Shown here: positions 1-18,053 of the stretch, piece by piece
Layout: each line of letters opens with the position of its first letter
Numbering within the stretch: the first letter of the stretch is position 1
Origin: the human T2T-CHM13v2.0 reference genome, Homo sapiens
Assembly: GCF_009914755.1 (NCBI RefSeq)
Contig: NC_060928.1
Direction: 5' to 3' (one strand)
Length of the DNA stretch: 64,000 nucleotides
Program-made: the position numbers and the translations under genes
Notes under the pieces: model-generated
Told to the model about the DNA's origin: nothing
What the model saw: the letters and a program-made list of their open reading frames with translations, nothing else
The model's database searches: none

Positions 1-300
1 ATTTGTAAACGTGGTTTATGACGTTTTGTAACAGAATATCTTGACAGTAGCATGAGAACATTTAACGAGACAAGAACATTCCCCACTGACCAACCAGATG
101 GTTTCAGGGAACAGGATGCTGTGCTCAGTTTAATCTTCTGCTGAACCATTAGGCAGAAAATCCTCTGGGTCAATGCCTCTCACTGAATCCACTTCTCATC
201 CTGTCCACCTGCCTGCTTTGCAGTGCAGAGTAAAGTGGGCCTTCTTTGACCCTCTTCAGGGACCAATGTGCTTGAGGCCATCATGAGGACATTCATTCTT

Positions 301-609
301 TCTTTTTTTTTTTTTTTTTTTTTTTTGGAGAGAGTCTCGCTCTGTCGCTCAGGCTGGAATGCAGTGGTGTGATCTCAGCTCCCCACTGTAACCTCTGCTT
401 CCCAAGTTCAAGTGACTCTCTTGCCTCAGCCTCCTGAGTAGCTGGGATTACAGGCACGCATCACCAGGCCCAGCTAATTTTTCTATTTTTTGTAGAGACA
501 GGGTTTCACCATGTTGACCATGCTGGTGTCGAACTCCTGACTTCAAGTGATCCACCTGCCTCGGCCTCCCAAAGTGCTGGTATTACAGGTGTGAGCCAAC
601 ATGCCTGGC
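301..609 (-). mobile_element. Alu SINE (AluS-like), full length
   Basis: Poly-T followed by reverse-complement Alu consensus (gagtctcgctctgtcgctcaggctgg ... cctcccaaagtgctgg ... gtgagcca). Imperfect TSD gaggacattcattctt / gagggctttcattctt. Confidence 0.93.
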
Positions 610-808
610 AGAGGGCTTTCATTCTTCATGGACTGCTCCATAGCCTCAGAGACAGTCGGACTGGTTTCTTCAACCAGAGCGGAGCAGACAGGCAATTTCT
701 GTATCCACCAGGACAAATATTAGCCCAACTCTTCAATGTACAGAGAGCATCACATTTCTTATATACTAGAATATCTGTTGGTCTAAAATATAAATAAATA
801 GTATTGTA

Positions 809-1117
809 GCCAGCCACAGTGGCTCACACCTATAATTGCAGAGATTTGTGGGGCTGAGGCAGGAGGTTCACTTGAGGTCAAGTGTTCGAGACCACCCTGG
901 GCAACATAGCGAGACAACCCCCCCCCCCCACCGCCACCTGCCATCTCTACAAAAATTAAAATAATTAGCTGGGCATAGTAGTGTGGGCCTGTAGTCCCAA
1001 CTACTTGGGAAACTGATGTGGGTGGATTGCTTGAGCCCAGGAATCTGAGGCTGCAGTGGGCTATGACTGCATCACTGTACTCCAGCTAGACCTTGTCTCA
1101 AAAAAAAAAAAAAAAAA
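809..1117 (+). mobile_element. Alu SINE (old, AluJ-like) with internal poly-C tract
   Basis: gtggctcacacctataat ... ttgagcccagga ... ccttgtctc followed by a poly-A tail. C-run at about 918-929. Confidence 0.88.
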
Positions 1118-1269
1118 GTGTGCAATTGACATTACTTTATCATTTGAAAAGAGGGACAGACAAGAAAGGTATTTGGCATTTACCAAGCAATTACTCATAA
1201 TCCTCATCCCATCCTACCCCCACCCTTCCCCTAAAAATGTATGTATATGTTTGTATACCATAAAACATA

Positions 1270-1500
1270 CATCTATTTGGCTCTGGAACCAGATTGCTTG
1301 GGTTCAATTACCTGATCTAGCATTTGCTCCTGATGACTCAGTGCAGAAAAGCTCTGTAACTCAGTTTCCCCAGCTGTAAAATGGGGAATGGCGCCTTTAC
1401 TGGGCTGCCATGAGGGTAAAGGGGGTAACATATATTTATAAAGCATTCAGAACAATTCATGATACACAGTAAGCTCTATATATTTGAGCTTATTATTACT
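1270..1500 (+). mobile_element. MIR SINE fragment
   Basis: MIR core-like ctcagtttccccagctgtaaaatgggga and 3' part (aagcattcagaaca ... cagtaagctct ... ttattattact). Boundaries approximate. Confidence 0.7.
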
Positions 1501-1704
1501 GTCAGTACGATTATCATCATTTTGCTGTTTCCAATGGGTACATTTTCTACATTCTCTTTCTTAAAGACCTTTAAGTCCTTGGTATTCTCTCCACCACCAC
1601 AGAGGGCAGTGTCCTTGTAGTTTAAATTTTCAAAGACTTCATGGATCCAATAAGCACGACATTAACTAAGGGACAGTTTTCTTTCAGTGGATTGGAATCT
1701 AAAA

Positions 1705-1824
1705 TGGCTTTTTTATTGTTATTATTGGCCAGGCTGGTCTCGAACTCCTGACTTCAAGTGATTCCCCCCACCTCACCCTCCCAAAGTGTGCTGAGACTCC
1801 AGGCATGAGCCACCATGCACGGCC
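1705..1824 (-). mobile_element. Alu left-arm fragment
   Basis: ttggccaggctggtctcgaactcctgac ... cctcccaaagtg ... ggcatgagccacc. Confidence 0.8.
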
Positions 1825-1985
1825 TTCATTCTCTTCTTTTATAAGGACACCAGTCATTGCATCTGCCCCCTCACCAGCAGCCCCCAATCCAGGATGACTC
1901 ATCGTTACTTGATTACATCTAGAAAGACCCTATTTCCAAATAAGGTCACATTCCTGGGTACCGAGGATTAAGATTTCCAATTTTT
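1825..1985 (-). mobile_element. MaLR LTR fragment (MLT1-like)
   Basis: Resembles MLT1 LTR from recall: cttcttttataaggacaccagtcattg ... ttgattacatct ... agaccctatttccaaataaggtcacattc. Confidence 0.6.
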
Positions 1986-1996
1986 AACCTGACTCA

Positions 1997-2299
1997 TTTT
2001 TTTTTTTTTTTTTTTGAGTCAGCGCCTCACCCTGTCATCCAGGCTGGAGTACAGTTATGTGATTATAGCTCACTGCAGCCTCAAACTCCTGGGCTCAAGG
2101 GATCCCCTGACCTCAGCCTTCCAAGTGGCTGAGACTACAGGTGCACACCATCATGCCCAACTAATTTTTTTTGTTTTTTTGTGTGTTTTTTTTTGTACAG
2201 GTTAGGTCTCACTCTGTTGACCAGGCTGGTCTGACCTCAAGAGATTCTCTTGCCTTGGCCTCCCAAGGCACTGGGATTACAGGCGTTATCCCATGCCTG
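1997..2299 (-). mobile_element. Alu SINE (AluJ-like)
   Basis: Poly-T, then caggctggagtacagt ... gctcactgcagcctcaaactcctgggctcaag (J-type diagnostic) ... gcctcccaa ... gggattacaggc. Confidence 0.87.
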
Positions 2300-2961
2300 A
2301 CCCTCTTTCTACACCTCAATCATTGTATCATTAGCCTGAGCTGCCCATATTCCTTATTCTGCCCATCCCTGACCAACCTCCTCCTTTAACATAACTTCCA
2401 TCTCGATATCATGGGGCCTGCTGGGCACTGCAAACAGCCTAAGGAAAGTGGAAACTTTACTTAACCTTAAATTGTATTACAAAGCCCACATTGAACGTAA
2501 TTTATATTTAAACTATAAAAATTTTCTGTAAATTGAAACATGACCTATAAAGGTCTCTACACCCTGAAGCAACGTTTTAGAAAGAAATCAATTGGTCCTT
2601 TTCTGCAGAAACCATTAACCATAGGAGAGATAAAGGAAAAACTTCAATGTACTGATTGAACTTCCATGCCCATAAGTTAACTTCTAAAAGGCAACCATTC
2701 CATATTGTTAAACTGCCTTAGGTTGTTATTACTGTTATGAAAGAGATCTTCAAAGCCAGAAGTTGAATCTTGACTGTAGTTCTTGCACGTACACGCACAC
2801 TCTTGCAACTGAAACCACTCAGATTGTCCTAATGCTGCTCCCCATAGCAACACCACCTGGAATTTTACGTTTGGTTTTAAGCATCAGTCATAATCTTCAC
2901 TTGCACCCGAACACACCGCACCTGTGAGAGCCACGTGATATTAAAAAAATCCCTTTAGTGA

Positions 2962-3255
<294 letters not shown>

Positions 3256-3310
3256 TCAGTGCCTTGATCCTTCCAGATTCAGATCCAAGAGAGATGACAT
3301 TTGTCCATCA

Positions 3311-3667
<357 letters not shown>

Positions 3668-4699
3668 TCAGCTCTGTGGTCCGCTAGCGTCCTTCCTCAA
3701 TCTGCTTCCAATCTGTGGACTCAAGAAAGACTGAACCAACCTAGATTAATATTTTAGTGTAACATAATACAGTGTTACTTACTATGACATTGACCGTATA
3801 TGCCCTTTTGCTCCTTGGAGGAAAGACAATTAATAGCTATTATGTGAGTTAATAAAATAAGCCCAGGATTTATGAGTATAACTAACCTGTTCCCATTGGT
3901 CTTCCTCGTCTCCTGCAGGCAGAGAGCTGATCAAAACAGCAAAAGCAAAGCAGTGCCCCTGGCCCAGTTCTGAAGCCAATCTTCCTTAATCACCCAGACC
4001 CATCCCTGGTTAGGACTTGCTGTGGATTCTCAGGTGACTCCATCTCAGGATACAGGGACTGAGAGGGTGTATGCAACATCTCAGAGCCAGAAACCATTGA
4101 TTCTGTCTAAAAACACAGTAATAACCACATCCCATCCTCTTGATTTAAATGAAAGTGTTTGGAAGAATAAAAGATGAACCTTTTTTTTTTGTCAGATCTT
4201 GCGCTCATTTGGTTCTGGTGTGGAACAACAGCTATAAGAGAACAAGTGTATTCAATTAGAATTAATTCCCCTCTCTTATTCTCATAGCTGAGCAGGGCTT
4301 AAGTGCCTCTCATCTGAAAGAGGTAATAAGATTTTATCTGTCTCCTCATCTACCTTTTGCAAGTATACTTAACAAATTCGCTCTCGGGACTCTTCCAAAT
4401 GGAGTTTTATGAGGAATTTGCTAAGGTAAACGTTTTAGACTTTGAACACAGTTCAGATTTCAGGGGCAGTACTGAAATCTAAACTGTGTTGCTAACTGCC
4501 CTGCCTTTCAACTCAAGACACAAAAACTTTGAACTAAAATAATTATATTTTTGTTGTTTTCCACTCTGTCCCCACGTCTATATCACCACCACCCCCAATC
4601 CCACCCCGCAGGAGCTAACTCCTCCTTCCTGTCCCTGCAAGATCAAAACTCCTCCTGCAAGCCCCGCTAGCTCTGTCTGCTCACCTTCGTGGTAGATAT

Positions 4700-4870
4700 C
4701 GCTATCGTACTTTTATCCTCCTTTGTGTGATAAGTACTTCAATATCCACTTCTTCCACGAGCCCCTGAGTCCCTGAAGGGCCTGGACCACACCTAGTTTT
4801 TCTCACCGTTACATATCCCTTGTCAGGCACATGGTAGGCGCTTAAAAAGTATTTGGTGAACGAATGGCTT
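4700..4870 (+). mobile_element. L2 LINE 3'-end fragment
   Basis: ggcacatggtaggcgcttaaaaagtatttggtgaacgaatg resembles the L2 3' terminus. Boundaries approximate. Confidence 0.55.
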
Positions 4871-5039
4871 GTTTGGTGACAGTCCAAAGGCTGGGGGACA
4901 GAGGGAAAGCTCCCTCCTTTCGGGCCCCAGACGGGTGGCGCTGATGGAGAGGAGGCTAGCCTAAGTCCTCCAGGACCGAAGCATGCACCCGTAAGGCCCC
5001 TGCTAAAAAGACCTTCCTGAAGGCGGAGGAACTGCGAGA

Positions 5040-6570
5040 GTGCCTACGTTAGCCCAAGGCCTGACCCGACGATCCCAGGGACCCTCGACCTAACTGGCCC
5101 CGCCTCCCGGGCCCCAAACCCGGACTCGGCCCCCCCGAAGCTCCGGATCCTGGGGCCCGCCCCTGGCCCCGCGTCGGAAGACCATGGGCTCGCTCCTGGG
5201 CCTTCCTCAAACCCTCCGCAGGTAACGCCTCCCGAACTGGAGCCACATTCCGATCCCCTCCTCAAATCCCTCCCCGTTTCCCACACCCTGGACCCCTCGC
5301 TCCGTCTCGGCCCCGCCCCAAGCCCAGCTAGGTCTCGGCCCCCGAGCCCAGCCCCGACCGGCCTCCCAGTCCCTGGGTCCCTCCCGACACCGGCCCCTCC
5401 CTAAGCTCCGCCTCCCAGGGCCCACCTCCTGAGCGCAGCCCAGCCCGGACTCGGCCCCGCCTCCCGGACCCTGGGCCCCTCCCCACGTGGGTCCGTCCTA
5501 AGCTTCGCCTCCCGGAGTCCGCGCACCGCCTGGCCGTGTGCTACGACATAGTCAACGCCCCGCCCCTGCCCCGCCTCCTGAGCCCTTCCCTGGGTCTGGC
5601 CTTAGCCCCGCCCTAAGACCTCTCTCCTGGGCTCTGCTCTGAGTCCCGCCTCCTGAACCCAATGGCGTTTATCCCCGCCCTAATGCCCGCCTCCAGGACT
5701 CTTATCCTGCCCCCACGCAAGGCACTGCCTCCAGGACGCCACCAACCTGAACGCTTCCGAAGCCCAGCTTCCAGGATCGCCCTATCCTGGCCCCGCCCCA
5801 GGAACCGCCAACCTGGACTCTCCCCAGGACCTGCCCCAACGTCGCTTATCCTGGCCCTACCCCAGGCTTCGCCCTCATGACGTTCATCCTGGCCACACCC
5901 CAGGCCCCGCCCTCCTAACGCTCATCTTGGCCCCGCCCTAGAGTCCGCCCCCAGGACGCACCTCCTGACCGTATCCCCAGGCCCCGCCCCCTCTCTGCCC
6001 CCGCGCACTGCCCTCGGCCCGCCCCCTCTTCAGTCCAGGCCCGGCTTCCTCCAGGTCTCCAGGCAACGCTGCGGCTCCGCCCACGTCATGGCGCCCGAGG
6101 AGAACGCGGGGACAGAACTCTGGCTGCAGGGTTTCGAGCGCCGCTTCCTGGCGGCGCGCTCACTGCGCTCCTTCCCCTGGCAGGTGGCCGGCGGGGCGAG
6201 CGGAGAGGCCCGCGGGGGTCGCGGGAGTCCAGGGGCAGACGGGATGGGTCTCGGTGCTGAAACCCCTGGCGCTCCGGCCACGTGCGTTCCTGGGCTCTCC
6301 CCGGTCAGGGCCGCGAGACCCGGTCCCCGTCCCTGGGGCCTGGCCAGAGTCGCTCGCACCCCTTCTGCCCCGCGAGCTGGCGGCGGAAGCTGGGGGCGTC
6401 TCCACCGCCCTGGGGGGCAGACGCGCGTTCGGTGTGGGGCACAGTTCACGATCATTTTCACGACTTTTTAAAGGCAGTAATCGTTCTGGTCACTGGGACA
6501 CAGCTGCGCTCGCCCATTCTAAAAAGTCAGCGCCCTCAGGCCCGCGGGTAACCACCGCCTCCTGAGCGCG
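5040..6570. promoter_or_regulatory. CpG island / GC-box-rich promoter of the FAM86 paralog
   Basis: Very GC- and CpG-rich, with many ccccgccc / ccgcctcc Sp/KLF boxes. Spans the FAM86 start codon at 6088. Confidence 0.85.
6088..6183 (+). CDS. FAM86/EEF2KMT-family paralog, coding exon 1 (MAPEENAGTELWLQGFERRFLAARSLRSFPWQ)
   Basis: Near-identical to the N-terminus of EEF2KMT/FAM86B as recalled. Good Kozak context (gtcATGg) and phase-0 donor CAG|gtggcc at 6184. The specific paralog cannot be identified from sequence alone. Confidence 0.9.
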
Positions 6571-7119
6571 GTGACCAGGTCACAGGCTGTCTCTCATGCC
6601 TCAGTGTTCTCATCTGTATGTCGAGCACTGCACAGAATCGGCTCATGCGCTGAGGCTTTCACGCCTGTGATGGAAGAGACAGAGAAGGGGGTGGCCTCTC
6701 CTCTCCCTGGGGACCTGCCATTCTCAGCATAGGCATATGGCAGGCAGCAGCCTCCCTTCTGCCAGCAGAGGGGCTTAATGCACCCCGCTCCATTTGTAAT
6801 TCATGTGCAGTGAGCTCACTGGGATGAGTCAGTTTGGATATATATTCCTCCCTGTGTCTGCCCCATTTTATGGGGTGTTGCTTAATCATTTGCGTTATTG
6901 CATTGACATAAAATATTTAGCACTCAGGGATCATTTCTGGTCAGGAGAAATTTGTGCATTTTTAACCCAAAATAGAAACCTTCATAAAAGCATCATAGGT
7001 CTCCATTCAATATTGACTATAATTGTTCACATGCCCACACTGAATGCTAACTTGGGCTCACCCTCAACACCCACGAGGTGGGTACTATTATTATCACTCA
7101 CATTTGACCAGAGGGATTG

Positions 7120-7365
7120 TTTGATTAGGGTGAAGTAGTTGAGAGTTCAGACCCAGGAGACAGCCTGCCTGCTTCGAATCCTGGCCCAACCCCTGGCCCT
7201 GTGTGACCTTGGGCAAGTGACTGCATCTCTCTGTGTTATTGTTTTCTTATTAACAAAATGGGGGATATAATGATACCTACCTCTTAGGGTTGTTGTCAGC
7301 GTTGAATACAAAAGCCTGTGGATCAGTGCCTGGCTCATGGTAAATGCATGTCGGTGTTAGCTAGT
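7120..7365 (+). mobile_element. MIR SINE
   Basis: ttcgaatcctggc ... tgtgtgaccttgggcaagtgact ... aaaatgggggatataatgatacctacctc ... cagtgcctggc. Confidence 0.8.
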
Positions 7366-7379
7366 GTTTTATTCAGTCT

Positions 7380-7840
7380 CAAAATGCCTTCCGTGAGCCA
7401 GGCACCATGGATCAGCTGTACCCATGATAGATGAGGCTCTGCTTGCATGGGAGAGCCAGAGAATAAACAAATAAATGAATAAACAAGAAAAGACCAGATT
7501 AGAGTGGCTTTAAAACCAATAAAACAGGGAAATAGTGAATGGAGCAACTGGGAAAAAGTGTCACCAAAGTCAGGGAATCAGGGAAGCCTTCCCCAAAGGG
7601 GTGGCATTTGAACTGAGGCCTGAGTGGTGAAGCAGCCAGCCATGGGAAGGGTTTGGGGAACAGGATATGCAAAGGCCCTGTGGTGGAAATAAGCCAGCTG
7701 TGGTTGAGGAACAACAGCAAGGCAGCCAGTGTGGCTGGAGTGGAGTGAGCAGGGTGGGCCAGGGGTGAGGGAGAACAGGCCAGAGAGGGGGATTAGCAGC
7801 AGGTCTTGTAGGGCCTTTTATGGCATGGAAGGAGCTCTGA
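7380..7840 (-). mobile_element. L2 LINE fragment
   Basis: gccaggcacc ... catttgaactgaggcctga ... gcaaaggccctgtgg ... ccagtgtggctggagtggagtgagc resembles antisense L2. Boundaries approximate. Confidence 0.6.
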
Positions 7841-8315
7841 AGCAATGAAGTGCCTTGCCGTGTGTCACATACCAGCCGAGACAGTCTGCCTAACTCGGGA
7901 GCCAAAGCTCGCTGGTGGGCTTGAGGCCCCTGTAAGACAGCAATGTAACCCAGGCTGGAATGGGCACATTCTGCATTTCCACTTAAACTCAGATGGCAAG
8001 CCCATCAAACCTTGGTGCCATGGCTGCCCTGGTAATTCCTGGCTGACCAGTGTAACCAGGGAGCTGGCCCATGACCTGGGTGGCAACTGAGTAGCCAGGA
8101 CTAATGCGGCCAAGAGTCAGCCTTCTTCCTGTGACTCATCCAGGTGCACTCTGCGACATCTGAAGGTCAGGCTTTCAGCCGCTGTGGCTTCCACTTCCAA
8201 CTGGCTCCACGTCCCCAGGGAGGGATCACATAGAGCTTTGCCAACACATTCTATTGCGTGTTTTAATGTTCCTGTGAATGTGCCCTTGAGATTTCTCTCT
8301 CTCCCATCCACACAG

Positions 8316-8378
8316 AGCTTAGAGGCAAAGTTAAGAGACTCATCAGATTCTGAGCTGCTGCGGGATATTTTGCAGAAG
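8316..8378 (+). CDS. FAM86/EEF2KMT-family paralog, coding exon 2 (SLEAKLRDSSDSELLRDILQK)
   Basis: Pyrimidine tract plus cacag acceptor, 63-nt phase-0 exon, strong donor AAG|gtaaga. Peptide matches FAM86 residues 33-53. No further FAM86 exon is seen in the window. Confidence 0.9.
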
Positions 8379-9235
8379 GTAAGAATCCCAGAGTCCCTGG
8401 GACTCATGACCCTGCCGCCTGAATCTCTCCGGAAGACCTGAAAGAAGCAGCACTGGTGTGCTTGTACCCTTTAAAAACAGCCCTCTTCAAAGAACAAAAC
8501 CATTGAGTCAGCACTGCAGGAGGGTGTCAGCACCTCCCACAGCTCCTGCGCTTTCGTTTTCTATCTAAGACTTAGACAAAGACATCAGAATACACAAAAA
8601 TCTGCAAGAGGGGGGAAATCTAGGGAATGTTTTTTAAACCATCCACAGCAAAAACAGAGATGACAGGTGCAAAACAGCTTCTAGCATTGGGTAGATGCTC
8701 AGAGACTTTCTTTTTTGCATTTATGAGGCCTGTCCCGCCCACTCCTGTCTCTTCTAGACCTAAATGGGCCCTTGCTTTGCCCAGGGTAGGGTTTGGACTC
8801 AAGTGCATCTGCATGCAGGTGAGAGCCAGGATCACCACCCGGCCCAGCCACAGGCTGACCTTGGCCTTGAGGGCCAAGTGCAGATCACCCTGCATCCTGG
8901 GTCTTCACCTTCGAAGGGCCATGAGCCCTTCTGAAAAGACAAAGCAATAGACTACCTCCCAGAAAGAAGTGCACCAGAAGAATACATTTTCCATACAAAC
9001 TCAGGGGAGGCAGACATCCTCCACCCTCACCCACCCAGCCCAATCCTAGGAGCCCCGGGGAAGAATTCCTGTGCTAGAGGTGAATCAAGATTATCCACGT
9101 GGAAAAGATGCAGCCACAGCAGGGAAGACTTTGGGGCAATAGAGTAGGTCAGGGCTTCGAGCATGGAGATACCTGAAGTTATCTCGCACCTTGCTCTGAG
9201 TTTCACCCTGAGCCTCACTCACTCAAACTCTGAGC

Positions 9236-10148
9236 CCAGGCAGCTCAGAGTGTCCAGCAAGCTTTGGAACAGTTGGTGAAGCCCGAAGAACTCAATGGAG
9301 AGAATGCCTATCATTGTGGTGTTTGTCTCCAGAGGGCGCCGGCCTCCAAGACGTTAACTTTACACACTTCTGCCAAGGTCCTCATCCTTGTATTGAAGAG
9401 ATTCTCCGATGTCACAGGCAACAAGATTGCCAAGAATGTGCAATATCCTGAGTGCCTTGACATGCAGCCATACATGTCTCAGCAGAACACAGGACCTCTT
9501 GTCTATGTCCTCTATGCTGTGCTGGTCCACGCTGGGTGGAGTTGTCACAACGGACATTACTTCTCTTATGTCAAAGCTCAAGAAGGCCAGTGGTATAAAA
9601 TGGATGATGCCGAGGTCACCGCCTCTAGCATCACTTCTGTCCTGACTCAACAGGCCTACGTCCTCTTTTACATCCAGAAGAGTGAATGGGAAAGACACAG
9701 TGAGAGTGTGTCAAGAGGCAGGGAACCAAGAGCCCTTGGCGCAGAAGACACAGACAGGCGAGCAACGCAAGGAGAGCTCAAGAGAGACCACCCCTGCCTC
9801 CAGGCCCCAGAGGTGGACGAGCACTTGGTGGAAAGAGCCACTCAGGAAAGCACCTTAGACCACTGGAAATTCCTTCAAGAGCAAAACAAAACGAAGCCTG
9901 AGTTCAACGTCAGAAAAGTCGAAGGTACCCTGCCTCCCGACGTACTTGTGATTCATCAATCAAAATACAAGTGTGGGATGAAGAACCATCATCCTGAACA
10001 GCAAAGCTCCCTGCTAAACCTCTCTTCGACGACCCCGACACATCAGGAGTCCATGAACACTGGCACACTCGCTTCCCTGCGAGGGAGGGCCAGGAGATCC
10101 AAAGGGAAGAACAAACACAGCAAGAGGGCTCTGCTTGTGTGCCAGTGA
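9236..10148 (+). pseudogene. 5'-truncated USP17L copy (codons 228-530); lacks promoter, ATG and Cys89 box
   Basis: Identity to the array unit starts at ccaggcagctcagag (9236, equivalent to 13985 in the next unit). Upstream sequence is FAM86 intron. Frame stays open to TGA at 10148. Confidence 0.92.
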
Positions 10149-10181
10149 TCTCAGTGGAAGTACCGACCCACACGTAGGGGT

Positions 10182-10272
10182 GCACACACACACGCACACA
10201 CACAGACACACACATAACTACACCCAGAAGCGCGCACGCAAACACACACACACCCACACAAACACGAACACC
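10182..10272 (+). repeat. Interrupted (CA)n tract just 3' of the USP17L stop (recurs in every unit)
   Basis: gcacacacacacgcacacacacagacacacacataactacac ... Confidence 0.85.
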
Positions 10273-10875
10273 GTCAATCCTACATAAACTAATGAGGAGC
10301 CCAAGTTTCTGTCTCTACAACAGGGACAACTGGATAGTGATGGCTACATCTCAGGATGAGCCCGCATATGGGAAACATCAAGTTTTGGGGTCGTGAGTCT
10401 TCCGAACCTCTGGAGGGACTGTCTGAGTGTTTGTGTTCATGATAGGTGACATTCAGTGTGTATTTCTGAATATGACCTACCGACGTGTAGGTTTGCGTGT
10501 GAGGTAATTGCAGGGGACTCGGTTTCGTATTTTCTCTTGGGGTGTGTTTCATTCGTCAGTTGTTGGTCGGCATGAGAAGGTGAAATGCGGCTCATGTGGG
10601 ACATCCGTGGATCATTCTCGCCACCTTGAATAGTGGAAACTGGAATGCATTTGGAAGAGAAGAACGGTGCTCTTCTTTCTTCCCCGGGCTCGCCGTTTTT
10701 ACACTGGTTCCTGAATGGACCTCAGGCGCCCTGGGACTTGTGCTCTTGCTGGAACCCACATAACGCCGGAAGCGGACAGACCGACTTGCCTGTTTCACGG
10801 TGCCCGCTTCCCATGAGTCGAAACGGAAAATTTTCCCACGGGCATGTAAGTCATCTGGAAGTAAGCTGTATTGAT

Positions 10876-10922
10876 AATAAAGGAAAGCAAACACAGGAGT
10901 GTGTGTATTCAACTGAAATAAA
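10876..10922 (+). terminator. Two AATAAA hexamers, candidate USP17L polyadenylation signals (recur in every unit)
   Basis: AATAAA at 10876-10881 and 10917-10922, about 730-770 nt after the stop, each followed by a GT-rich stretch (gagtgtgtgtatt; gggtgtgttt). Confidence 0.5.
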
Positions 10923-12826
10923 TTCAGAAAGCCCTGAAATCAATCTCACTGGGTGTGTTTAAAAATGGCATTTGGGGAATTTCTGGGTCATTTGTCCAGC
11001 TGCGAAAGCTGCATCTCTGAAGCACAGTCCCTGTCCCGCAGTGAGACTTATTGATCCGACGTGGTGTTTCCGTGGAAATGATTGTGGGAAATGGCCCCTT
11101 CCTTTTCTCTATTTGCTGATTAGACTTCATGGTCCCTTTCTCGTCAGGTACAGTGATCAAAGTTGACCAACCCCAGAGGAAAGCTGCCCAGGGCAAAACT
11201 CAGGGCTCCGTAGAACCACAGAATCTTGGGCGCAACCCTGCTCAAGCACCCAAATGTGCATACGAACAGGGTCTCCGTGTGACGTGTGTGAAAACTACAG
11301 TGTGATGAGCATGACTGGCAGACAGCTTATCGATTGGGCTCCCCTCAAAATCGGTTATGAGCATTCAAGCCCACCGATGCCCAGGTCCCGGCTGCAGGAA
11401 TAAGACCCTCCATGGTCTTGTGTGAAGCCTCGGCATCTGCATTGCTCATGCTTCTGGGGATCATTCTCCTGAAAATGGTGGCTCCTTTCTCCCTGTGGAG
11501 CATCTTTCTAAGCAGTGCTCTTTTCTTCCCCCAGGACACTTTACATCCGGCACAGGAAGCCTTCTGATGGAGCACACCTGGCCCATGAAAAGACAAGGGA
11601 AAGAAACGGGGCCAAAGGTCACAGTCCTCTCATCCCATCATCCTCCTTAAAATCATCCTAATTTCATGGGCCCTGAAGCCAGGGCTGTTTCTCTACACCT
11701 AGAGGCCTTGGCGCCGGGCCTCAATTCCGCCCTGTTCCTTACCGTCTAAGACATGTTGGGAAAATCCCTAGAGCCAGGATCTTCATTCCTGCTAAGCCAG
11801 ACAGCCGGAAGACACACCCAAATTCTGTCCCTCTTACTTCAGGGAACATGTCCACTTTCGGCAGCATTACAATTTTGGCACCAAATGAGCTAACTGCAAT
11901 TCCACCATACAATGCGTAACTGGAAATGGAGAACACATCTCCGATCCTGAACGATCGATGCGAGAATCCAGGATATGCACGGCTTATTTTGGCCTTTTCC
12001 CACTGAAACAAGGGCCAGTATTAAAAATGGCACGCTATCCTCTGTTTCACTCCCTGCTTTTAAACGTCTCCGATGTTTCTCCCTGAGACAGGGCCTCACT
12101 TCCGTCAGCCGGGCATTTCTACGGTATAATTTTCCTTGTTTGCTTTTGTCCAAATTAGAACTTTTTATTTCATCTCTAGGAAACGTTGATCCATTATCAC
12201 ATACGTATGGAAATATTATCACACATGCTGTGAGATACGTTGTTTTTATTTTCATCAATTCTTTAATAAACAAAAGGTTATAGCTGGGATACCTTCTGAG
12301 TTCTCAAGTTTTTTGTTTCGTGTTTTCTTAAACTGCCGTCGCACGTCCGAAACCGCTCACTATGCAGTGTCATGACCGTCTCTCTTTTCTGGCAAACATA
12401 AATTTGGGGATTGTCATCAATTAGTCTCTCGGGGATTGCATGATTTCCCCAAAGGCTTTCACAGTCTACTTTGTGCACTGAGTATCTCTTCAAACTTCAG
12501 TGCACGTTTCTACCATTTGATGCTTTATTATTTGGCAATCTAGCTTCCACAAGAGCATTTCATGCAAAGACTTGTCTTGTTCTCCACTGGCAGGTAATTT
12601 CACTCGGACAGATAATCAATAGGCTCAACGTGGAAAGGTTTTCGCTGGAAGGTCTGTTTGATTCCACGGATCTCTCCTTTCTCATTAGGGAAGAAAATAC
12701 GCTGTGCTAAATACTATACTTCATTGACTATTCTCAGGTCAGAAAGCGCACTTTCGACTTCTTGTCCTTCCGTCGCTGAGAGGATGATGGCAGCTGCCAA
12801 AAGTACATACTTGGAAGTTCATCCCA

Positions 12827-12900
12827 GCACAAACACACACAGACACACGCCCCCCCCAAACACACACACACAAACACACTCACACACACACACGCACACG
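12827..12900 (+). repeat. Compound (CA)n-poly(C)-(CA)n microsatellite about 430 bp upstream of the USP17L ATG (recurs in every unit)
   Basis: acacacacagacacacgccccccccaaacacacacacac ... Length and structure vary between units. Confidence 0.88.
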
Positions 12901-13099
12901 GTTTCCTAGGTAAAAATTTCTTCCCTGCCATTGCTTTACCTAAAATAAGGCAATTGTGAGGCCACTGTCCCAACCCGGTTACACTCCTATTATATGTGCC
13001 TATCATCCTGAGGAGTAATTTGATTGAGGTGTTCTGGAAGTCATGCTGTGGGCTGTGTCTGTTGAATTCCCAGCGATGCCAGGGGACACACCCTGTGAC

Positions 13100-13230
13100 T
13101 CCTTCCTGAATTGAGTGCTGATATTTGATTGGCTTATCGCGCACCTGATGAGTGGGTGGGGTGTTCGCGGTTGGTGGGGGTGACTTACAGAAGGGCTGAT
13201 GCGGCCAGAGAGCTCGTCATTTGAAGACTC
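13100..13230 (+). promoter_or_regulatory. Putative USP17L proximal promoter (inverted CCAAT box, GT/CACCC boxes); recurs per unit
   Basis: tgattggct (AGCCAATCA on the - strand) at 13126-13134, gggtggggt and ggtggggg boxes, and a local CpG cluster 80-200 bp upstream of the ATG. Confidence 0.5.
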
Positions 13231-13304
13231 TCTCGGAAGGGATAGCGTCTTTCTGCAACCTGCGGTCCCAGCAGACAAACCTTGTGATCCTCGTTCCAGT
13301 CGAC

Positions 13305-14897
13305 ATGGAGGACGACTCACTCTACTTGGGAGGTGAGTGGCAGTTCAACCACTTTTCAAAACTCACATCTTCTCGGCCAGATGCAGCTTTTGCTGAAATC
13401 CAGCGGACTTCTCTCCCTGAGAAGTCACCACTCTCATGTGAGACCCGTGTCGACCTCTGTGATGATTTGGCTCCTGTGGCAAGACAGCTTGCTCCCAGGG
13501 AGAAGCTTCCTCTGAGTAGCAGGAGACCTGCTGCGGTGGGGGCTGGGCTCCAGAATATGGGAAATACCTGCTACGTGAACGCTTCCTTGCAGTGCCTGAC
13601 ATACACACCGCCCCTTGCCAACTACATGCTGTCCCGGGAGCACTCTCAAACGTGTCATCGTCACAAGGGCTGCATGCTCTGTACTATGCAAGCTCACATC
13701 ACACGGGCCCTCCACAATCCTGGCCACGTCATCCAGCCCTCACAGGCTTTGGCTGCTGGCTTCCATAGAGGCAAGCAGGAAGATGCCCATGAATTTCTCA
13801 TGTTCACTGTGGATGCCATGAAAAAGGCATGCCTTCCCGGGCACAAGCAGGCGGATCATCACTCTAAGGACACCACCCTCATCCACCAAATATTTGGAGG
13901 CTACTGGAGATCTCAAATCAAGTGTCTCCACTGCCACGGCATTTCAGACACTTTTGACCCTTACCTGGACATCGCCCTGGATATCCAGGCAGCTCAGAGT
14001 GTCCAGCAAGCTTTGGAACAGTTGGTGAAGCCCGAAGAACTCAATGGAGAGAATGCCTATCATTGTGGTGTTTGTCTCCAGAGGGCGCCGGCCTCCAAGA
14101 CGTTAACTTTACACACTTCTGCCAAGGTCCTCATCCTTGTATTGAAGAGATTCTCCGATGTCACAGGCAACAAGATTGCCAAGAATGTGCAATATCCTGA
14201 GTGCCTTGACATGCAGCCATACATGTCTCAGCAGAACACAGGACCTCTTGTCTATGTCCTCTATGCTGTGCTGGTCCACGCTGGGTGGAGTTGTCACAAC
14301 GGACATTACTTCTCTTATGTCAAAGCTCAAGAAGGCCAGTGGTATAAAATGGATGATGCCGAGGTCACCGCCTCTAGCATCACTTCTGTCCTGACTCAAC
14401 AGGCCTACGTCCTCTTTTACATCCAGAAGACTGAATGGGAAAGACACAGTGAGAGTGTGTCAAGAGGCAGGGAACCAAGAGCCCTTGGCGCAGAAGACAC
14501 AGACAGGCGAGCAACGCAAGGAGAGCTCAAGAGAGACTACCCCTGCCTCCAGGCCCCCGAGTTGGACGAGCACTTGGTGGAAAGAGCCACTCAGGAAAGC
14601 ACCTTAGACCACTGGAAATTCCTTCAAGAGCAAAACAAAACGAAGCCTGAGTTCAACGTCAGAAAAGTCGAAGGTACCCTGCCTCCCGACGTACTTGTGA
14701 TTCATCAATCAAAATACAAGTGTGGGATGAAGAACCATCATCCTGAACAGCAAAGCTCCCTGCTAAACCTCTCTTCGACGACCCCGACACATCAGGAGTC
14801 CATGAACACTGGCACACTCGCTTCCCTGCGAGGGAGGGCCAGGAGATCCAAAGGGAAGAACAAACACAGCAAGAGGGCTCTGCTTGTGTGCCAGTGA
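13305..14897 (+). CDS. USP17L: Ubiquitin-specific peptidase 17-like protein, 530 aa, intact (A183, T364, T376, Y412)
   Basis: [12 protein letters not shown] start, Cys box [17 protein letters not shown] (C89), QEDAHEFL, His box HNGHY (H334), KMDD (D350/351). Intronless. Confidence 0.95.
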
Positions 14898-17800
14898 TCT
14901 CAGTGGAAGTACCGACCCACACGTAGGGGTGCACACACACACGCACACACACAGACACACACATAACTACACCCAGAAGCGCGCACGCAAACACACACAC
15001 ACCCACACAAACACGAACACCGTCAATCCTACATAAACTAATGAGGAGCCCAAGTTTCTGTCTCTACAACAGGGACAACTGGATAGTGATGGCTACATCT
15101 CAGGATGAGCCCGCATATGGGAAACATCAAGTTTTGGGGTCGTGAGTCTTCCGAACCTCTGGTGGGACTGTCTGAGTGTTTGTGTTCATGATAGGTGACA
15201 TTCAGTGTGTATTTCTGAATATGACCTACCGACGTGTAGGTTTGCGTGTGAGGTAATTGCAGGGGACTCGGTTTCGTATTTTCTCTTGGGGTGTGTTTCA
15301 TTCGTCAGTTGTTGGTCGGCATGAGAAGGTGAAAGGTGGCTCATGTGGGACATCCGTGGATCATTCTCGCCACCTTGAATAGTGGAAACTGGAATGCATT
15401 TGGAAGAGAAGAACGGTGCTCTTCTTTCTTCCCCGGGCTCGCCGTTTTTACACTGGTTCCTGAATGGACCTCAGGCGCCCTGGGACTTGTGCTCTTGCTG
15501 GAACCCACATAACGCCGGAAGCGGACAGACCGACTTGCCTGTTTCACGGTGCCCGCTTCCCATGAGTCGAAACGGAAAATTTTCCCACGGGCATGTAAGT
15601 CATCTGGAAGTAAGCTGTATTGATAATAAAGGAAAGCAAACACAGGAGTGTGTGTATTCAACTGAAATAAATTCAGAAAGCCCTGAAATCAATCTCACTG
15701 GGTGTGTTTAAAAATGGCATTTGGGGAATTTCTGGGTCATTTGTCCAGCTGCGAAAGCTGCATCTCTGAAGCACAGTCCCTGTCCCGCAGTGAGACTTAT
15801 TGATCCGACGTGGTGTTTCCGTGGAAATGATTGTGGGAAATGGCCCCTTCCTTTTCTCTATTTGCTGATTAGACTTCATGGTCCCTTTCTCGTCAGGTAC
15901 AGTGATCAAAGTTGACCAACCCCAGAGGAAAGCTGCCCAGGGCACAACTCAGGGCTCCGTAGAACCACAGAATCTTGGGCGCAACCCTGCTCAAGCACCC
16001 AAATGTGCATACGAACAGGGTCTCCGTGTGACGTGTGTGAAAACTACAGTGTGATGAGCATGACTGGCAGACAGCTTATCGATTGGGCTCCCCTCAAAAT
16101 CGGTTATGAGCATTCAAGCACACCGATGCCCAGGTCCCGGCTGCAGGAATAAGACCCTCCAGGGTCTTGTGTGAAGCCTCGGCATCTGCATTGCTCATGC
16201 TTCTGGGGATCATTCTCCTGAAAATGGTGGCTCCTTTCTCCCTGTGGAGCATCTTTCTAAGCAGTGCTCTTTTCTTCCCCCAGGACACTTTACATCCGGC
16301 ACAGGAAGCCTTCTGATGGAGCACACCTGGCCCATGAAAAGACAAGGGAAAGAAACGGGGCCAAAGGTCACAGTCCTCTCATCCCATCATCCTCCTTAAA
16401 ATCATCCTAATTTCATGGGCCCTGAAGCCAGGGCTGTTTCTTTACACCTAGAGGCCTTGGCGCCGGGCCTCAATTCCGCCCTGTTCCTTACCGTCTAAGA
16501 CATGTTGGGAAAATCCCTAGAGCCAGGATCTTCATTCCCGCTAAGCCAGACAGCCGGAAGACACACCCAAATTCTGTCCCTCTTACTTCAGGGAACATGT
16601 CCACTTTCGGCAGCATTACAATTTTGGCACCAAATGTGCTAACTGCAATTCCACCATACAATGCGTAACTGGAAATGGAGGCAACATCTCCGATCCTGAA
16701 CGATCGATGCGAGAATCCAGGATATGCACGGCTTATTTTGGCCTTTTCCCACTGAAACAAGGGCCAGTATTAAAAATGGCACGCTATCCTCTGTTTCACT
16801 CCCTGCTTTTAAACGTCTCCGATGTTTCTCCCTGAGACAGGGCCTCACTTCCGTCAGCCGGGCTTTTCTACGGTATAATTTTCCTTGTTTGCTTTTGTCC
16901 AAATTAGAACTTTTTATTTCATCTCTAGGAAACGTTGATCCATTATCACATACGTATGGAAATATTATCACACATGCTGTGAGATACGTTGTTTTTATTT
17001 TCATCAATTCTTTAATAAACAAAAGGTTATAGCTGGGATACCTTCTGAGTTCTCAAGTTTTTTGTTTCGTGTTTTCTTAAACTGCCGTCGCACGTCCGAA
17101 ACCGCTCACTATGCAGTGTCATGACCGTCTCTCTTTTCTGGCAAACATAAATTTGGGGATTGTCATCAATTAGTCTCTCGGGGATTGCATGATTTCCCCA
17201 AAGGCTTTCACAGTCTACTTTGTGCACTGAGTATCTCTTCAAACTTCAGTGCACGTTTCTACCATTTGATGCTTTATTATTTGGCAATCTAGCTTCCACA
17301 AGAGCATTTCATGCAAAGACTTGTCTTGTTCTCCACTGGCAGGTAATTTCACTCGGACAGATAATCAATAGGCTCAACGTGGAAAGGTTTTCGCTGGAAG
17401 GTCTGTTTGATTCCACGGATCTCTCCTTTCTCATTAGGGAAGAAAATACGCTGTGCTAAATACTATACTTCATTGACTATTCTCAGGTCAGAAAGCGCAC
17501 TTTCGACTTCTTGTCCTTCCGTCGCTGAGAGGATGATGGCAGCTGCCAAAAGTACATACTTGGAAGTTCATCCCAGCACAAACACACACACACACACGCC
17601 CCCCCCAAACACACACACACAAACACACTCACACACACACACGCACACGGTTTCCTAGGTAAAAATTTCTTCCCTGCCATTGCTTTACCTAAAATAAGGC
17701 AATTGTGAGGCCACTGTCCCAACCCGGTTACACTCCTATTATATGTGCCTATCATCCTGAGGAGTAATTTGATTGAGGTGTTCTGGAAGTCATGCTGTGG

Positions 17801-18053
17801 GCTGTGTCTGTTGAATTCCCAGCGATGCCAGGGGACACACCCTGTGACTCCTTCCTGAATTGAGTGCTGATATTTGATTGGCTTATCGCGCACCTGATGA
17901 GTGGGTGGGGTGTTCGCGGTTGGTGGGGGTGACTTACAGAAGGGCTGATGCGGCCAGAGAGCTCGTCATTTGAAGACTCTCTCGGAAGGGATAGCGTCTT
18001 TCTGCAACCTGCGGTCCCAGCAGACAAACCTTGTGATCCTCGTTCCAGTCGAC

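What the first reader, a model, noticed from the sequence alone, without database searches (positions are those of the whole stretch)
6088..10148. Candidate in-frame FAM86-USP17L chimeric gene created by the junction
Seen: FAM86 exons 1 and 2 (53 codons) have intact splice sites and end on a phase-0 donor at 8378, and no FAM86 exon 3 follows in the window. The junction reads ...cctcactcactcaaactctgagccCAG|GCA GCT CAG AGT, with CTCAC branchpoint-consensus (yUnAy) motifs about 20 nt upstream of a CAG at 9237-9239. Splicing 8378 to 9240 joins exactly in frame to USP17L Ala229 and gives 53+302 = 355 aa. Established: the USP triad is Cys89/His334/Asp351. The chimera would lack the Cys box but keep the His box, the two proposed hyaluronan-binding motifs and the basic C-tail. 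Inference: this could be a catalytically dead pseudo-DUB, possibly dominant-negative, driven by a housekeeping-type CpG island. The stop would be in the last exon, so it would escape EJC-dependent NMD. Caveats: the pyrimidine tract is weak and C-rich, and there is a competing GAG at 9232-9234.
Basis: partly seen in the sequence, partly recalled or inferred. Interest (0 to 1): 0.8.

Follow-up and report, generated by a model that had tools for sequence, protein, structure and literature searches.

The report
FAM86 stump meets truncated USP17L repeat
This is the edge of the human chromosome 4 USP17L tandem repeat, where a leftover FAM86 gene start abuts a half USP17L copy; a fused protein is possible on paper but the evidence points to an ordinary non-coding transcript.

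Summary
ATG 6088, FAM86 exons 6088-6183 and 8316-8378 (53 codons), a phase-0 GT donor at 8378/8379, a CAG at 9237-9239, and 302 codons plus stop at 9240-10148 that match USP17L residues 229-530 (299 of 302 identical).

The locus is the proximal boundary of the 57-unit RS447/USP17L macrosatellite on chr4. FAM86 intron-2 homology ends at 9220. A 15-nt filler occupies 9221-9235. Repeat-unit homology starts at 9236. This junction occurs once in the assembly.

The chimeric-gene reading is weak:
- On a rough recalled weight matrix the 9240 acceptor scores -1.05 bits, rank 52 of 275 AGs downstream of the donor.
- The acceptor of the RefSeq lncRNA model at 11535 scores 10.09, rank 1, and an AATAAA follows at 12265. 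That splice gives only a 63-codon frame.
- Being in frame is not remarkable: 38 of 88 AGs in the fragment are in frame, and four of them score higher.
- The product would keep 144 of 293 USP-domain residues and one of two CxxC pairs, so a folded pseudo-enzyme is unlikely.

No RNA data could be consulted. My verdict is a real but ordinary array-edge junction, most likely a promoter stump driving a lncRNA. A minor chimeric isoform is not excluded.

The parts
5300..6450 (.). CpG island / promoter of the FAM86 stump. It is shared head-to-head with the minus-strand lncRNA LOC105369250, which ends at 5286.
   Evidence: GC 0.72, CpG observed/expected 0.72, 102 CpG; GC profile. The hub table puts the lncRNA TSS at 6032 and RefSeq 'silencer' elements at 5364-5473 and 6097-6226.
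6088..6183 (+). FAM86 exon 1 coding part, 32 codons from the ATG (annotated exon 6032-6183), donor CAG|GTGGCC.
   Evidence: Pfam FAM86 E 9.4e-6, profile 3-27. 90-96% DNA identity to 13 paralogous loci. The frame is open and starts with ATG; this copy reads W at residue 12, where all 12 paralog translations printed read L.
8316..8378 (+). FAM86 exon 2, 21 codons, ending on a phase-0 donor AAG|gtaaga.
   Evidence: Pfam FAM86 profile 28-48. Identical over exon and splice sites to two chr8 paralogs, L004 and L005.
8379..9220 (+). Remnant of FAM86 intron 2, 842 nt.
   Evidence: The seven paralogs aligned stop matching the window at exactly 9220, and all 15 paralog hits end at query position 921, which is window 9220. 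In the seven paralogs inspected the intron continues with different sequence. Many Alu-like hits map about 55-350 nt past the break, and exon 3 lies about 1.05 kb past it.
9221..9235 (+). 15-nt filler at the breakpoint, matching neither parent. It supplies part of the candidate branch-point / pyrimidine region.
   Evidence: It echoes nearby motifs: a 7-mer at 9230-9236 repeats 9208-9214 (read). The inference is non-homologous or template-switch joining.
9237..9239 (+). Candidate cryptic acceptor CAG, which is USP17L codon Gln228.
   Evidence: Score -1.05 bits on a recalled Shapiro-Senapathy-type matrix. Rank 52 of 275 AGs in 8439-12287 and 14 of 88 within the fragment. 12 pyrimidines (4 T) in positions -23..-4.
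9236..10148 (+). 5'-truncated first USP17L copy. The open frame 9240-10148 equals residues 229-530; the Cys box and first CxxC are lost, the His and Asp boxes and the C-terminal tail are kept.
   Evidence: Pfam UCH profile 133-254 of 254 (E 5.4e-28) and HABP4_PAI-RBP1 (E 4.3e-5). 3-8 base differences from 11 full units.
9236..13984 (+). First period of the RS447 / USP17L macrosatellite, phased from the junction.
   Evidence: 99.5% identical to 13985-18149 and to the following unit. 57 exact copies of a 33-mer at about 4746-4751 bp spacing, chr4:9123240-9389081.
11535..12287 (+). Terminal exon of the RefSeq-predicted lncRNA LOC124906426. It lies inside the first repeat unit.
   Evidence: Hub table. 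Acceptor ttttcttcccccag|G scores 10.09 bits, the best of 275 AGs downstream of the donor and of 884 AGs in 20-13304. AATAAA at 12265-12270 is 17 nt before the annotated end. Reading exon 2 into it gives a 63-codon frame.

Best explanation
Window 6088-10148 is the proximal (left) boundary of the RS447/USP17L macrosatellite on chromosome 4p16.1. A copy of the FAM86 segmental duplication was broken in intron 2, keeping the CpG-island promoter, exons 1-2 and 842 nt of intron 2. It was joined through 15 nt of filler to a repeat unit broken inside the USP17L ORF at codon 228. The surviving FAM86 promoter most likely drives a non-coding transcript (RefSeq model LOC124906426). In that model the exon-2 donor skips the weak junction AG, uses the very strong acceptor at 11535 in the first repeat unit, and ends at the AATAAA at 12265, leaving only a 63-codon frame. 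The 355-codon FAM86-USP17L frame is an incidental by-product of the join. If the 9240 acceptor is used at all, I expect a minor isoform whose product is half a USP fold. Shown: the anatomy, the uniqueness of the junction and the frame arithmetic. Inferred: the joining mechanism, the splice-site preference and the instability of the product.
For: Anatomy. FAM86 homology ends at 9220 in the seven paralogs aligned, and all 15 paralog hits end at the same window position. Unit homology starts at 9236 and the filler is shown. Only chr4:9122300-9123300 covers the whole junction query, 1 of 40 scored matches.

Array. 57 of 57 exact 33-mer hits lie on chr4 at about 4.75 kb spacing. The distal end is at chr4:9389590, inside the ORF. 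That distal junction is shared at 92% with four chr8 loci. The two chr8 repeat blocks examined do not show a break at the 9236-equivalent phase; where the upstream edge was seen (chr8:7.06 Mb) the block begins at window-equivalent 11075. So the FAM86|USP17L joint is specific to chr4.

Missing FAM86 parts. No FAM86 exon 3 lies in or near the array.

Splicing. 11535 scores 10.09 bits (rank 1 of 275), 8316 scores 3.03, 9240 scores -1.05 (rank 52 of 275) and 9235 scores -6.77. AATAAA is at 12265, 17 nt before the annotated 3' end. The hub's RefSeq model joins 8378 to 11535.

Protein. The fragment covers UCH profile 133-254 of 254. It retains 144 of the 293 residues of the 80-372 domain. It loses the C207/C210 pair and keeps C254/C257, and both pairs are conserved in USP36.

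Selection. The open frame is explained by 99.1-99.7% identity to neighbouring units.
Against: No transcript data were available. The RefSeq model is 'predicted', and a model built from short reads in a 57-fold repeat could be wrong or incomplete.

The weight matrix uses frequencies recalled from memory and is crude. One of six annotated acceptors in the window scores lower (-2.24) than 9240, and 21% of 884 AGs score at least as high as 9240. The score therefore says 'weak', not 'impossible'.

The upstream site is transcribed 2.3 kb before its strong competitor. It has two yUnAy motifs at a suitable distance, and CAG normally outcompetes the nearby GAG (recalled knowledge). All of this would favour some use.

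Confidence: 0.75

Rival explanations
1. Exon 2 splices to 9240 at a meaningful level and the mRNA is translated into a 355-aa FAM86(1-53)-USP17L(229-530) protein. This protein lacks the catalytic Cys and acts as a pseudo-DUB or dominant negative through its His-box half and its hyaluronan/RNA-binding tail.
For: The frame and the GT...AG path are exact. The promoter is a CpG island. Branch-point-like CTCAC motifs lie 18 and 22 nt upstream. The tail with the two (R/K)X7(R/K) motifs at 401-410 and 445-453 is retained (PMC1665497, passages read; Pfam HABP4 hit). Poly(A) signals at 10876 and 10917 would leave the stop in the last exon. At the other end of the array a truncated 398-aa ORF exists. 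It has the same length as USP17N, which was cloned from cDNA and found active, so edge units can be expressed.
Against: The acceptor scores -1.05 bits with only 4 T in positions -23..-4, against a 10.09-bit competitor that is the one annotated (hub table). The fragment is half of the USP domain with half of the CxxC...CxxC pair. It is therefore unlike known pseudo-DUBs, which keep the fold (recalled). No paper links FAM86 and USP17L functionally: the 11 co-mention papers are, by title and abstract, gene lists or CNV reports; LOC124906426 gave 0 papers; 'USP17' with 'chimeric transcript' gave 14 papers, of which the 10 listed are, by title and abstract, unrelated to this locus. Even the full USP17L genes are said to have 'little to no supporting evidence' as coding genes (PMC12462614, passage read).
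Confidence: 0.05
2. A chimera forms, but through a different and stronger cryptic in-frame acceptor inside the fragment. Candidates are 9333 (joins at USP17L codon 260), 9654, 9678 and 9804. These would give shorter FAM86-USP17L tail proteins.
For: In-frame AGs score 4.39 at 9333, 2.71 at 9654, 5.49 at 9678 and 4.51 at 9804, all above 9240 and three of them above the native exon-2 acceptor.
Against: All remain far below 11535. None is in the RefSeq model. These same sites exist in all 57 units without any annotated splicing (hub table). The matrix is crude.
Confidence: 0.05
3. The stump is transcriptionally silent or produces only unstable unspliced RNA. On this reading the predicted lncRNA is an annotation artefact of multi-mapping reads from expressed FAM86 paralogs and USP17L units.
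For: Exon 2 and its splice sites are identical to two chr8 paralogs, and exon 3 of the model is repeated in every unit, so reads are ambiguous. RefSeq marks silencer elements at 5364-5473 and 6097-6226 (hub table).
Against: A spliced read joining FAM86 exon 2 to RS447 sequence can arise in cis only here, because the junction is unique. The model's 3' end sits 17 nt after an AATAAA, as expected of a real poly(A) site.
Confidence: 0.12

Closest known systems
RS447 / USP17L macrosatellite (4p16.1, with a few copies at 8p23)
   Same: A 4.7-kb unit with a 530-aa USP17 ORF in each unit. This agrees with the 20-103 copies of a 4.7-kb unit given in PMC3018141 and PMC5687341 (passages read).
   Different: The finding concerns the array's first, 5'-truncated unit and its joint to flanking DNA. 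That joint is not described in the papers I could search: 'FAM86' occurs 0 times in PMC2874809 and in PMC3018141.
USP17N (398-aa USP17 member lacking the hyaluronan/RNA-binding tail; Shin et al. 2006, PMC1665497)
   Same: It is also a truncated USP17 ORF. The last unit of this array is cut at codon 398 and encodes exactly 398 aa in 1197 nt, the sizes reported for USP17N. The two array edges are thus complementary: residues 1-398 at the distal end and 229-530 at the proximal end.
   Different: USP17N keeps its own promoter, its start codon and the whole catalytic domain, and it was cloned and shown to be active. The proximal fragment has none of these. I could not compare the distal ORF with the USP17N accession, so the match rests on length only.
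USP6 (Tre2), a hominoid chimeric gene born from TBC1D3 and USP32 by segmental duplication
   Same: A USP-family gene part is placed behind another gene's promoter and 5' exons by a duplication-associated rearrangement, on the same strand and with an open frame.
   Different: USP6 keeps a complete catalytic USP domain and has documented transcripts and protein. Here the USP domain is cut in half and the only transcript model bypasses it.
FAM86 pseudogene family (paralogs of EEF2KMT/FAM86A on chr3, 4, 7, 8, 11, 12 and 16)
   Same: Exons 1-2 and introns are 90-97% identical to paralogous loci (15 paralog hits, 13). The N-terminal FAM86 Pfam signal is present.
   Different: This copy ends in intron 2 and lacks exon 3 onward, including the methyltransferase part. 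The names FAM86KP and FAM86MP for the chr4p16.1 copies are recalled, not verified.
Pseudo-deubiquitinases (for example USP39, PAN2/USP52; recalled)
   Same: The putative product would lack the catalytic cysteine.
   Different: Known pseudo-DUBs retain an entire USP fold. This fragment retains 144 of 293 domain residues.

Membership tests
USP / peptidase C19 domain (Pfam UCH PF00443) | Cys box with the catalytic cysteine (Cys89 in USP17L) | tested here: not met
   The fragment starts at residue 229. Its Pfam match covers profile 133-254 of 254 only, whereas the full unit covers 1-254.
USP / peptidase C19 domain (Pfam UCH PF00443) | His box and Asp/Asn box (His334, Asp351) | tested here: met
   Both are present in 9240-10148 at fragment positions 106 and 123, and they align with USP36 8bs3.
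USP / peptidase C19 domain (Pfam UCH PF00443) | Complete thumb-fingers-palm fold, including both CxxC pairs of the fingers | tested here: not met
   144 of 293 domain residues are retained. The C207/C210 pair is lost and C254/C257 is kept. That these pairs bind zinc is recalled knowledge, not tested.
FAM86 / EEF2KMT | N-terminal FAM86 domain (PF14904, 94 positions) | tested here: inconclusive
   Only profile positions 3-48 are encoded: exon 1 E 9.4e-6, exon 2 E 0.0025. The second half, encoded by exon 3 in the paralogs, is absent.
FAM86 / EEF2KMT | Downstream exons that encode the methyltransferase part | tested here: not met
   No continuation of intron 2 or of exon 3 at this locus. The nearest exon-3 hit on chr4 is 569 kb away in another copy. 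Absence of the methyltransferase exons is inferred from the break in intron 2; they were not searched for separately.
RS447 / USP17L macrosatellite unit | A unit of about 4.7 kb in head-to-tail array with a 530-aa ORF | tested here: met
   Period about 4750 at 99.5% identity. 57 copies. Nine 530-aa ORFs in the window. The unit in the finding is the truncated first one.
Chimeric gene born at a duplication junction (USP6 type) | Two parent gene parts on the same strand with a continuous frame through canonical GT...AG | tested here: met
   This holds in silico only.
Chimeric gene born at a duplication junction (USP6 type) | A transcript that actually joins the two parts | not testable with these tools
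   No RNA data are held. The only model (hub table) joins 8378 to 11535 and bypasses the USP17L frame.
Chimeric gene born at a duplication junction (USP6 type) | Evidence of constraint on the chimeric frame | tested here: inconclusive
   Against the majority of 11 units there are 3 differences (2 non-synonymous, 1 synonymous), too few to test. The openness of the frame is explained by recency or homogenisation.

The most novel reading that the evidence does not exclude
In some cell state where the FAM86 stump's CpG-island promoter is active, a minor isoform joins exon 2 to the junction AG at 9240, or to the stronger in-frame AG at 9333. It is translated into a human-lineage, Cys-less USP17L C-terminal protein. 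That protein keeps the hyaluronan/RNA-binding, nucleolus-directing tail and competes with full-length USP17 for partners. It would be a new gene born at the edge of a macrosatellite, mirroring the 398-aa truncated ORF at the array's other edge.
Probability: 0.03. Interest if true: 0.6.

Novelty: new member of a known kind. Interest (0 to 1): 0.2.

Why it matters
If the chimera were made, it would be a rare case of a new protein created at the boundary of a copy-number-variable macrosatellite, and a natural inhibitor-like fragment of a deubiquitinase family tied to cell proliferation and motility. As the evidence stands, the value is more modest. The work gives a base-level description of how the chr4 USP17L array begins: a FAM86 intron-2 break, 15 nt of filler, and USP17L codon 228. 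It also shows how the array ends, at codon 398, a boundary shared with four chr8 loci. The left joint is unique in the assembly, which gives a specific PCR or read anchor for sizing or phasing the array. It also explains why a FAM86-promoted lncRNA ends inside the first repeat unit.

Tried and rejected
1. Tandem Repeats Finder returned 0 rows because its longest period is 500. I measured the array with blastn and a 33-mer scan instead.

2. I asked whether the array was inserted into FAM86 intron 2, with the rest of the gene at the far end. Rejected. The sequence that follows the break in the paralogs has no copy at the distal end of the array. The distal flank is unrelated DNA shared with chr8.

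3. I asked whether the FAM86|USP17L joint recurs in the 8p23 copies. Rejected. Only the chr4 place spans it, and the chr8 repeat block whose upstream edge I saw begins at another unit phase.

4. I asked whether a 5'-truncated FAM86 copy on chr7 is the reciprocal product; it starts 87 nt before the equivalent of the break. I did not pursue this. The overlap is only 87 nt at 92% identity.

5. A test for selection on the fragment was uninformative, with only 3 differences from the unit majority.

6. MaxEntScan and SpliceAI are not available. I used a log-odds matrix with acceptor frequencies recalled from memory (Shapiro-Senapathy type). As a sanity check, the six annotated acceptors in the window scored -2.24, 0.46, 3.03, 5.02, 8.33 and 10.09, so the matrix separates only roughly.

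8. Literature searches:
- 'FAM86KP': 3 papers, by title and abstract unrelated to this locus.
- 'FAM86' with 'USP17L': 11 papers, by title and abstract gene lists or CNV reports.
- 'LOC124906426' or 'XR_007074420': 0 papers.
- 'USP17' with 'chimeric transcript': 14 papers, 10 listed, by title and abstract mostly mouse-embryo work or reviews and none about this locus.
None describes this junction. I read only listings and passages, and opened no supplements.

9. I did not run structure prediction of the fragment. A model of a half-domain would not settle stability.

Full report
**1. What was checked**

The finding says that FAM86 exons 1-2 (53 codons) end on a phase-0 donor at 8378. It also says that a CAG at 9237-9239, at a junction with a USP17L fragment, would allow an in-frame 355-codon chimera. 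Every coordinate holds.
- The ATG is at 6088. 6088-6183 gives 32 codons with a GT donor.
- 8316-8378 gives 21 codons between an AG acceptor and AAG|gtaaga.
- Both pieces match Pfam FAM86 at profile positions 3-27 and 28-48 of 94.
- 9240-10148 gives 302 codons plus a stop. 299 of 302 residues are identical to residues 229-530 of the neighbouring full 530-aa ORF.
- Cys89 lies before the break. His334 and Asp351 lie after it (alignment to the USP36 structure 8bs3).
- The GAG at 9232-9234 and two CTCAC motifs (A at 9217 and 9221) are present.

**2. Anatomy of the junction**

FAM86 side. A 1-kb query across the junction matched 15 FAM86 paralogs on chr3, 4, 8, 11, 12 and 16 over its first 921 bases only, that is up to window 9220. 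One further short chr7 match also ended at 921. Seven paralogs aligned in detail all stop matching at exactly 9220 and continue with different intron sequence.

USP17L side. Homology to the USP17L repeat unit starts at 9236 and runs at 99.5% identity into the next units.

Between them, the 15 bases at 9221-9235 match neither parent. They echo motifs a few bases upstream. I read this as filler from non-homologous or template-switch joining, which is an inference.

The CAG of the candidate acceptor is USP17L codon Gln228. The pyrimidine and branch-point region is FAM86 intron plus filler. Only one place in the assembly spans the whole junction.

**3. The array**
- A 33-mer from the start of the fragment occurs 57 times. 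All hits are on chr4 between 9,123,240 and 9,389,081, spaced about 4746-4751 bp apart. This is the RS447/USP17 macrosatellite described as 20-103 copies of a 4.7-kb unit on 4p16.1 (PMC3018141 and PMC5687341, passages read).
- The window holds nine intact 530-aa ORFs and two shortened ones.
- The array ends at chr4:9,389,590, again inside the ORF. This leaves a 398-codon frame with a stop supplied by the flank.
- That distal junction and its flank are shared at 92% identity with four chr8 loci.
- Neither of the two chr8 repeat blocks I fetched shows a break at the 9236-equivalent phase. The one whose upstream edge I saw, at chr8:7.06 Mb, begins at window-equivalent 11075.
- So the right edge is old and shared with 8p23, while the FAM86|USP17L left edge is specific to chr4.

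**4. Where the rest of FAM86 is**

In the paralogs, many Alu-like hits map about 55-350 nt past the break, and exon 3 lies about 1.05 kb past it. None of this is present at or near the array. The next exon-3 match on the same strand of chr4 is at 9,691,506, 569 kb away. It belongs to a different copy that is 94% identical and has no exon-1 match.

**5. Would exon 2 splice to 9240?**

I could not consult RNA data or run SpliceAI or MaxEntScan. I used a log-odds matrix over positions -14..+1 with frequencies recalled from memory, so its numbers are rough.

| Site | Score (bits) | Context |
|---|---|---|
| 9240 (candidate) | -1.05 | rank 52 of 275 AGs in 8439-12287 |
| 8316 (native exon 2) | 3.03 | annotated |
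| 11535 (RefSeq lncRNA exon 3) | 10.09 | rank 1 of 275; best of 884 AGs in 20-13304 |

Four other annotated acceptors in the window score -2.24, 0.46, 5.02 and 8.33, and 21% of all AGs reach the score of 9240. The honest reading is 'weak, not impossible'.

The 11535 acceptor (ttttcttcccccag|G) is followed by AATAAA at 12265, 17 nt before the annotated transcript end. That looks like a genuine terminal exon. Reading exon 2 into it leaves a 63-codon frame, which fits the lncRNA label.

Some points favour limited use of 9240. It is transcribed 2.3 kb before its competitor. It has suitable branch-point motifs. CAG is a better context than the adjacent GAG (recalled knowledge). AATAAA signals at 10876 and 10917 could terminate such an mRNA with the stop in its last exon.

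**6. Is the in-frame property special?**

No. 38 of 88 AGs in 9225-10145 are in frame with the phase-0 donor. Four of them score higher than 9240:
- 9333, which joins at codon 260
- 9654
- 9678
- 9804

The intact frame needs no selection to explain it. The fragment differs from 11 full units at 3-8 of 909 bases. Against their majority it has two non-synonymous changes and one synonymous change.

**7. What the product would be**
- It would carry 53 residues of a 94-position FAM86 N-domain and the second half of a USP domain, Pfam UCH profile 133-254 of 254. That is 144 of the 293 residues of the 80-372 domain.
- The break separates two CxxC pairs, C207/C210 and C254/C257. Both pairs are conserved in USP36. 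In USP enzymes these pairs together form the zinc ribbon of the fingers (recalled knowledge).
- Known pseudo-DUBs keep the whole fold (recalled). This would be half a fold with a basic tail.
- The tail does carry the two (R/K)X7(R/K) motifs at 401-410 and 445-453 and the Pfam HABP4 match (PMC1665497 passages). A tail-mediated activity cannot be excluded.

**8. Comparison with known things**

The locus belongs to the RS447/USP17L macrosatellite and to the FAM86 pseudogene family. As a candidate chimera it resembles USP6 (TBC1D3-USP32; recalled) in how it arose. It fails the features that make USP6 a gene, namely a complete catalytic domain and a documented transcript.

The closest instructive case is at the other end of this same array. 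The truncated last unit encodes exactly 398 aa. That is the size reported for USP17N, which was cloned from cDNA, was active, and lacked the binding tail. I could not compare the sequences.

**9. Literature**

I found nothing in print on this junction.
- 'FAM86' does not occur in the two RS447/USP17 genomics papers I searched.
- 'FAM86' with 'USP17L' gave 11 papers, by title and abstract gene lists or CNV reports.
- The gene and transcript identifiers gave 0 papers.
- 'USP17' with 'chimeric transcript' gave 14 papers. The 10 listed are, by title and abstract, mostly mouse-embryo work or reviews, and none concerns this locus.
- A catalogue paper notes that the USP17L family itself has 'little to no supporting evidence' as coding genes (PMC12462614, passage read).

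I read passages and listings only, and opened no supplements. Subscription papers on RS447 (Saitoh 2000, Okada 2002, Gondo 1998) are not in the library and may describe the array ends.

**10. Verdict**

The best explanation, at about 0.75 confidence, is an array-edge junction whose surviving FAM86 promoter drives a lncRNA that ends in the first repeat unit. The 355-codon chimera is an incidental frame. A meaningful chimeric protein gets about 0.05, or about 0.1 if other cryptic acceptors are included. Interest is low to moderate. The junction map is new detail of a known kind, and a simple RNA junction count would settle the question.

Noticed in passing
window 13305-14897, 18054-19646, 22804-24396, 27553-29145, 51302-52894: Five intact 530-aa USP17L ORFs have no row in the RefSeq table supplied with the finding. 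That table lists four other intact units as protein-coding and two as pseudogenes. The truncated first copy at 9236-10148 is not listed either.
   Followed up: partly
L009 398-1594 (chr4:9388397-9389593), the distal end of the array: The last repeat unit is cut at codon 398 and reads as a 398-aa ORF, 1197 nt with its stop. This is exactly the size reported for USP17N in PMC1665497. The same truncated-unit-plus-flank junction occurs at 92% identity at four chr8 loci, so USP17N-type ORFs may have several genomic sources.
   Followed up: partly
chr7:7058328-7059912 (no locus fetched): A 5'-truncated FAM86 copy begins only 87 nt upstream of the position equivalent to the chr4 break, then continues through the rest of intron 2 and exon 3. 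Two independent FAM86 copies are therefore broken within 87 nt of each other, with many Alu-like hits mapping just downstream of the chr4 break point.
   Followed up: no
window 37054-38646 and 56051-57643: In the two units labelled pseudogenes, the longest ATG frames are 469 aa (37054-38463, early stop) and 446 aa (starting at 56303), instead of 530 aa.
   Followed up: no
window 10170-10275 (and the same place in every unit): An imperfect CA-rich, microsatellite-like run begins about 20 nt after the USP17L stop codon.
   Followed up: no
window 6121-6123 (exon 1, residue 12): This FAM86 copy reads W at residue 12, where all 12 paralog translations printed read L (a 13th paralog showed an indel and was not translated). 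This could serve as a copy-specific marker for assigning RNA reads.
   Followed up: no
chr4:9689548-9693209 (no locus fetched): A second FAM86 copy lies on the same strand about 300 kb beyond the array end. It is 94% identical, has exon 2 onward, and has no exon-1 or promoter match.
   Followed up: no
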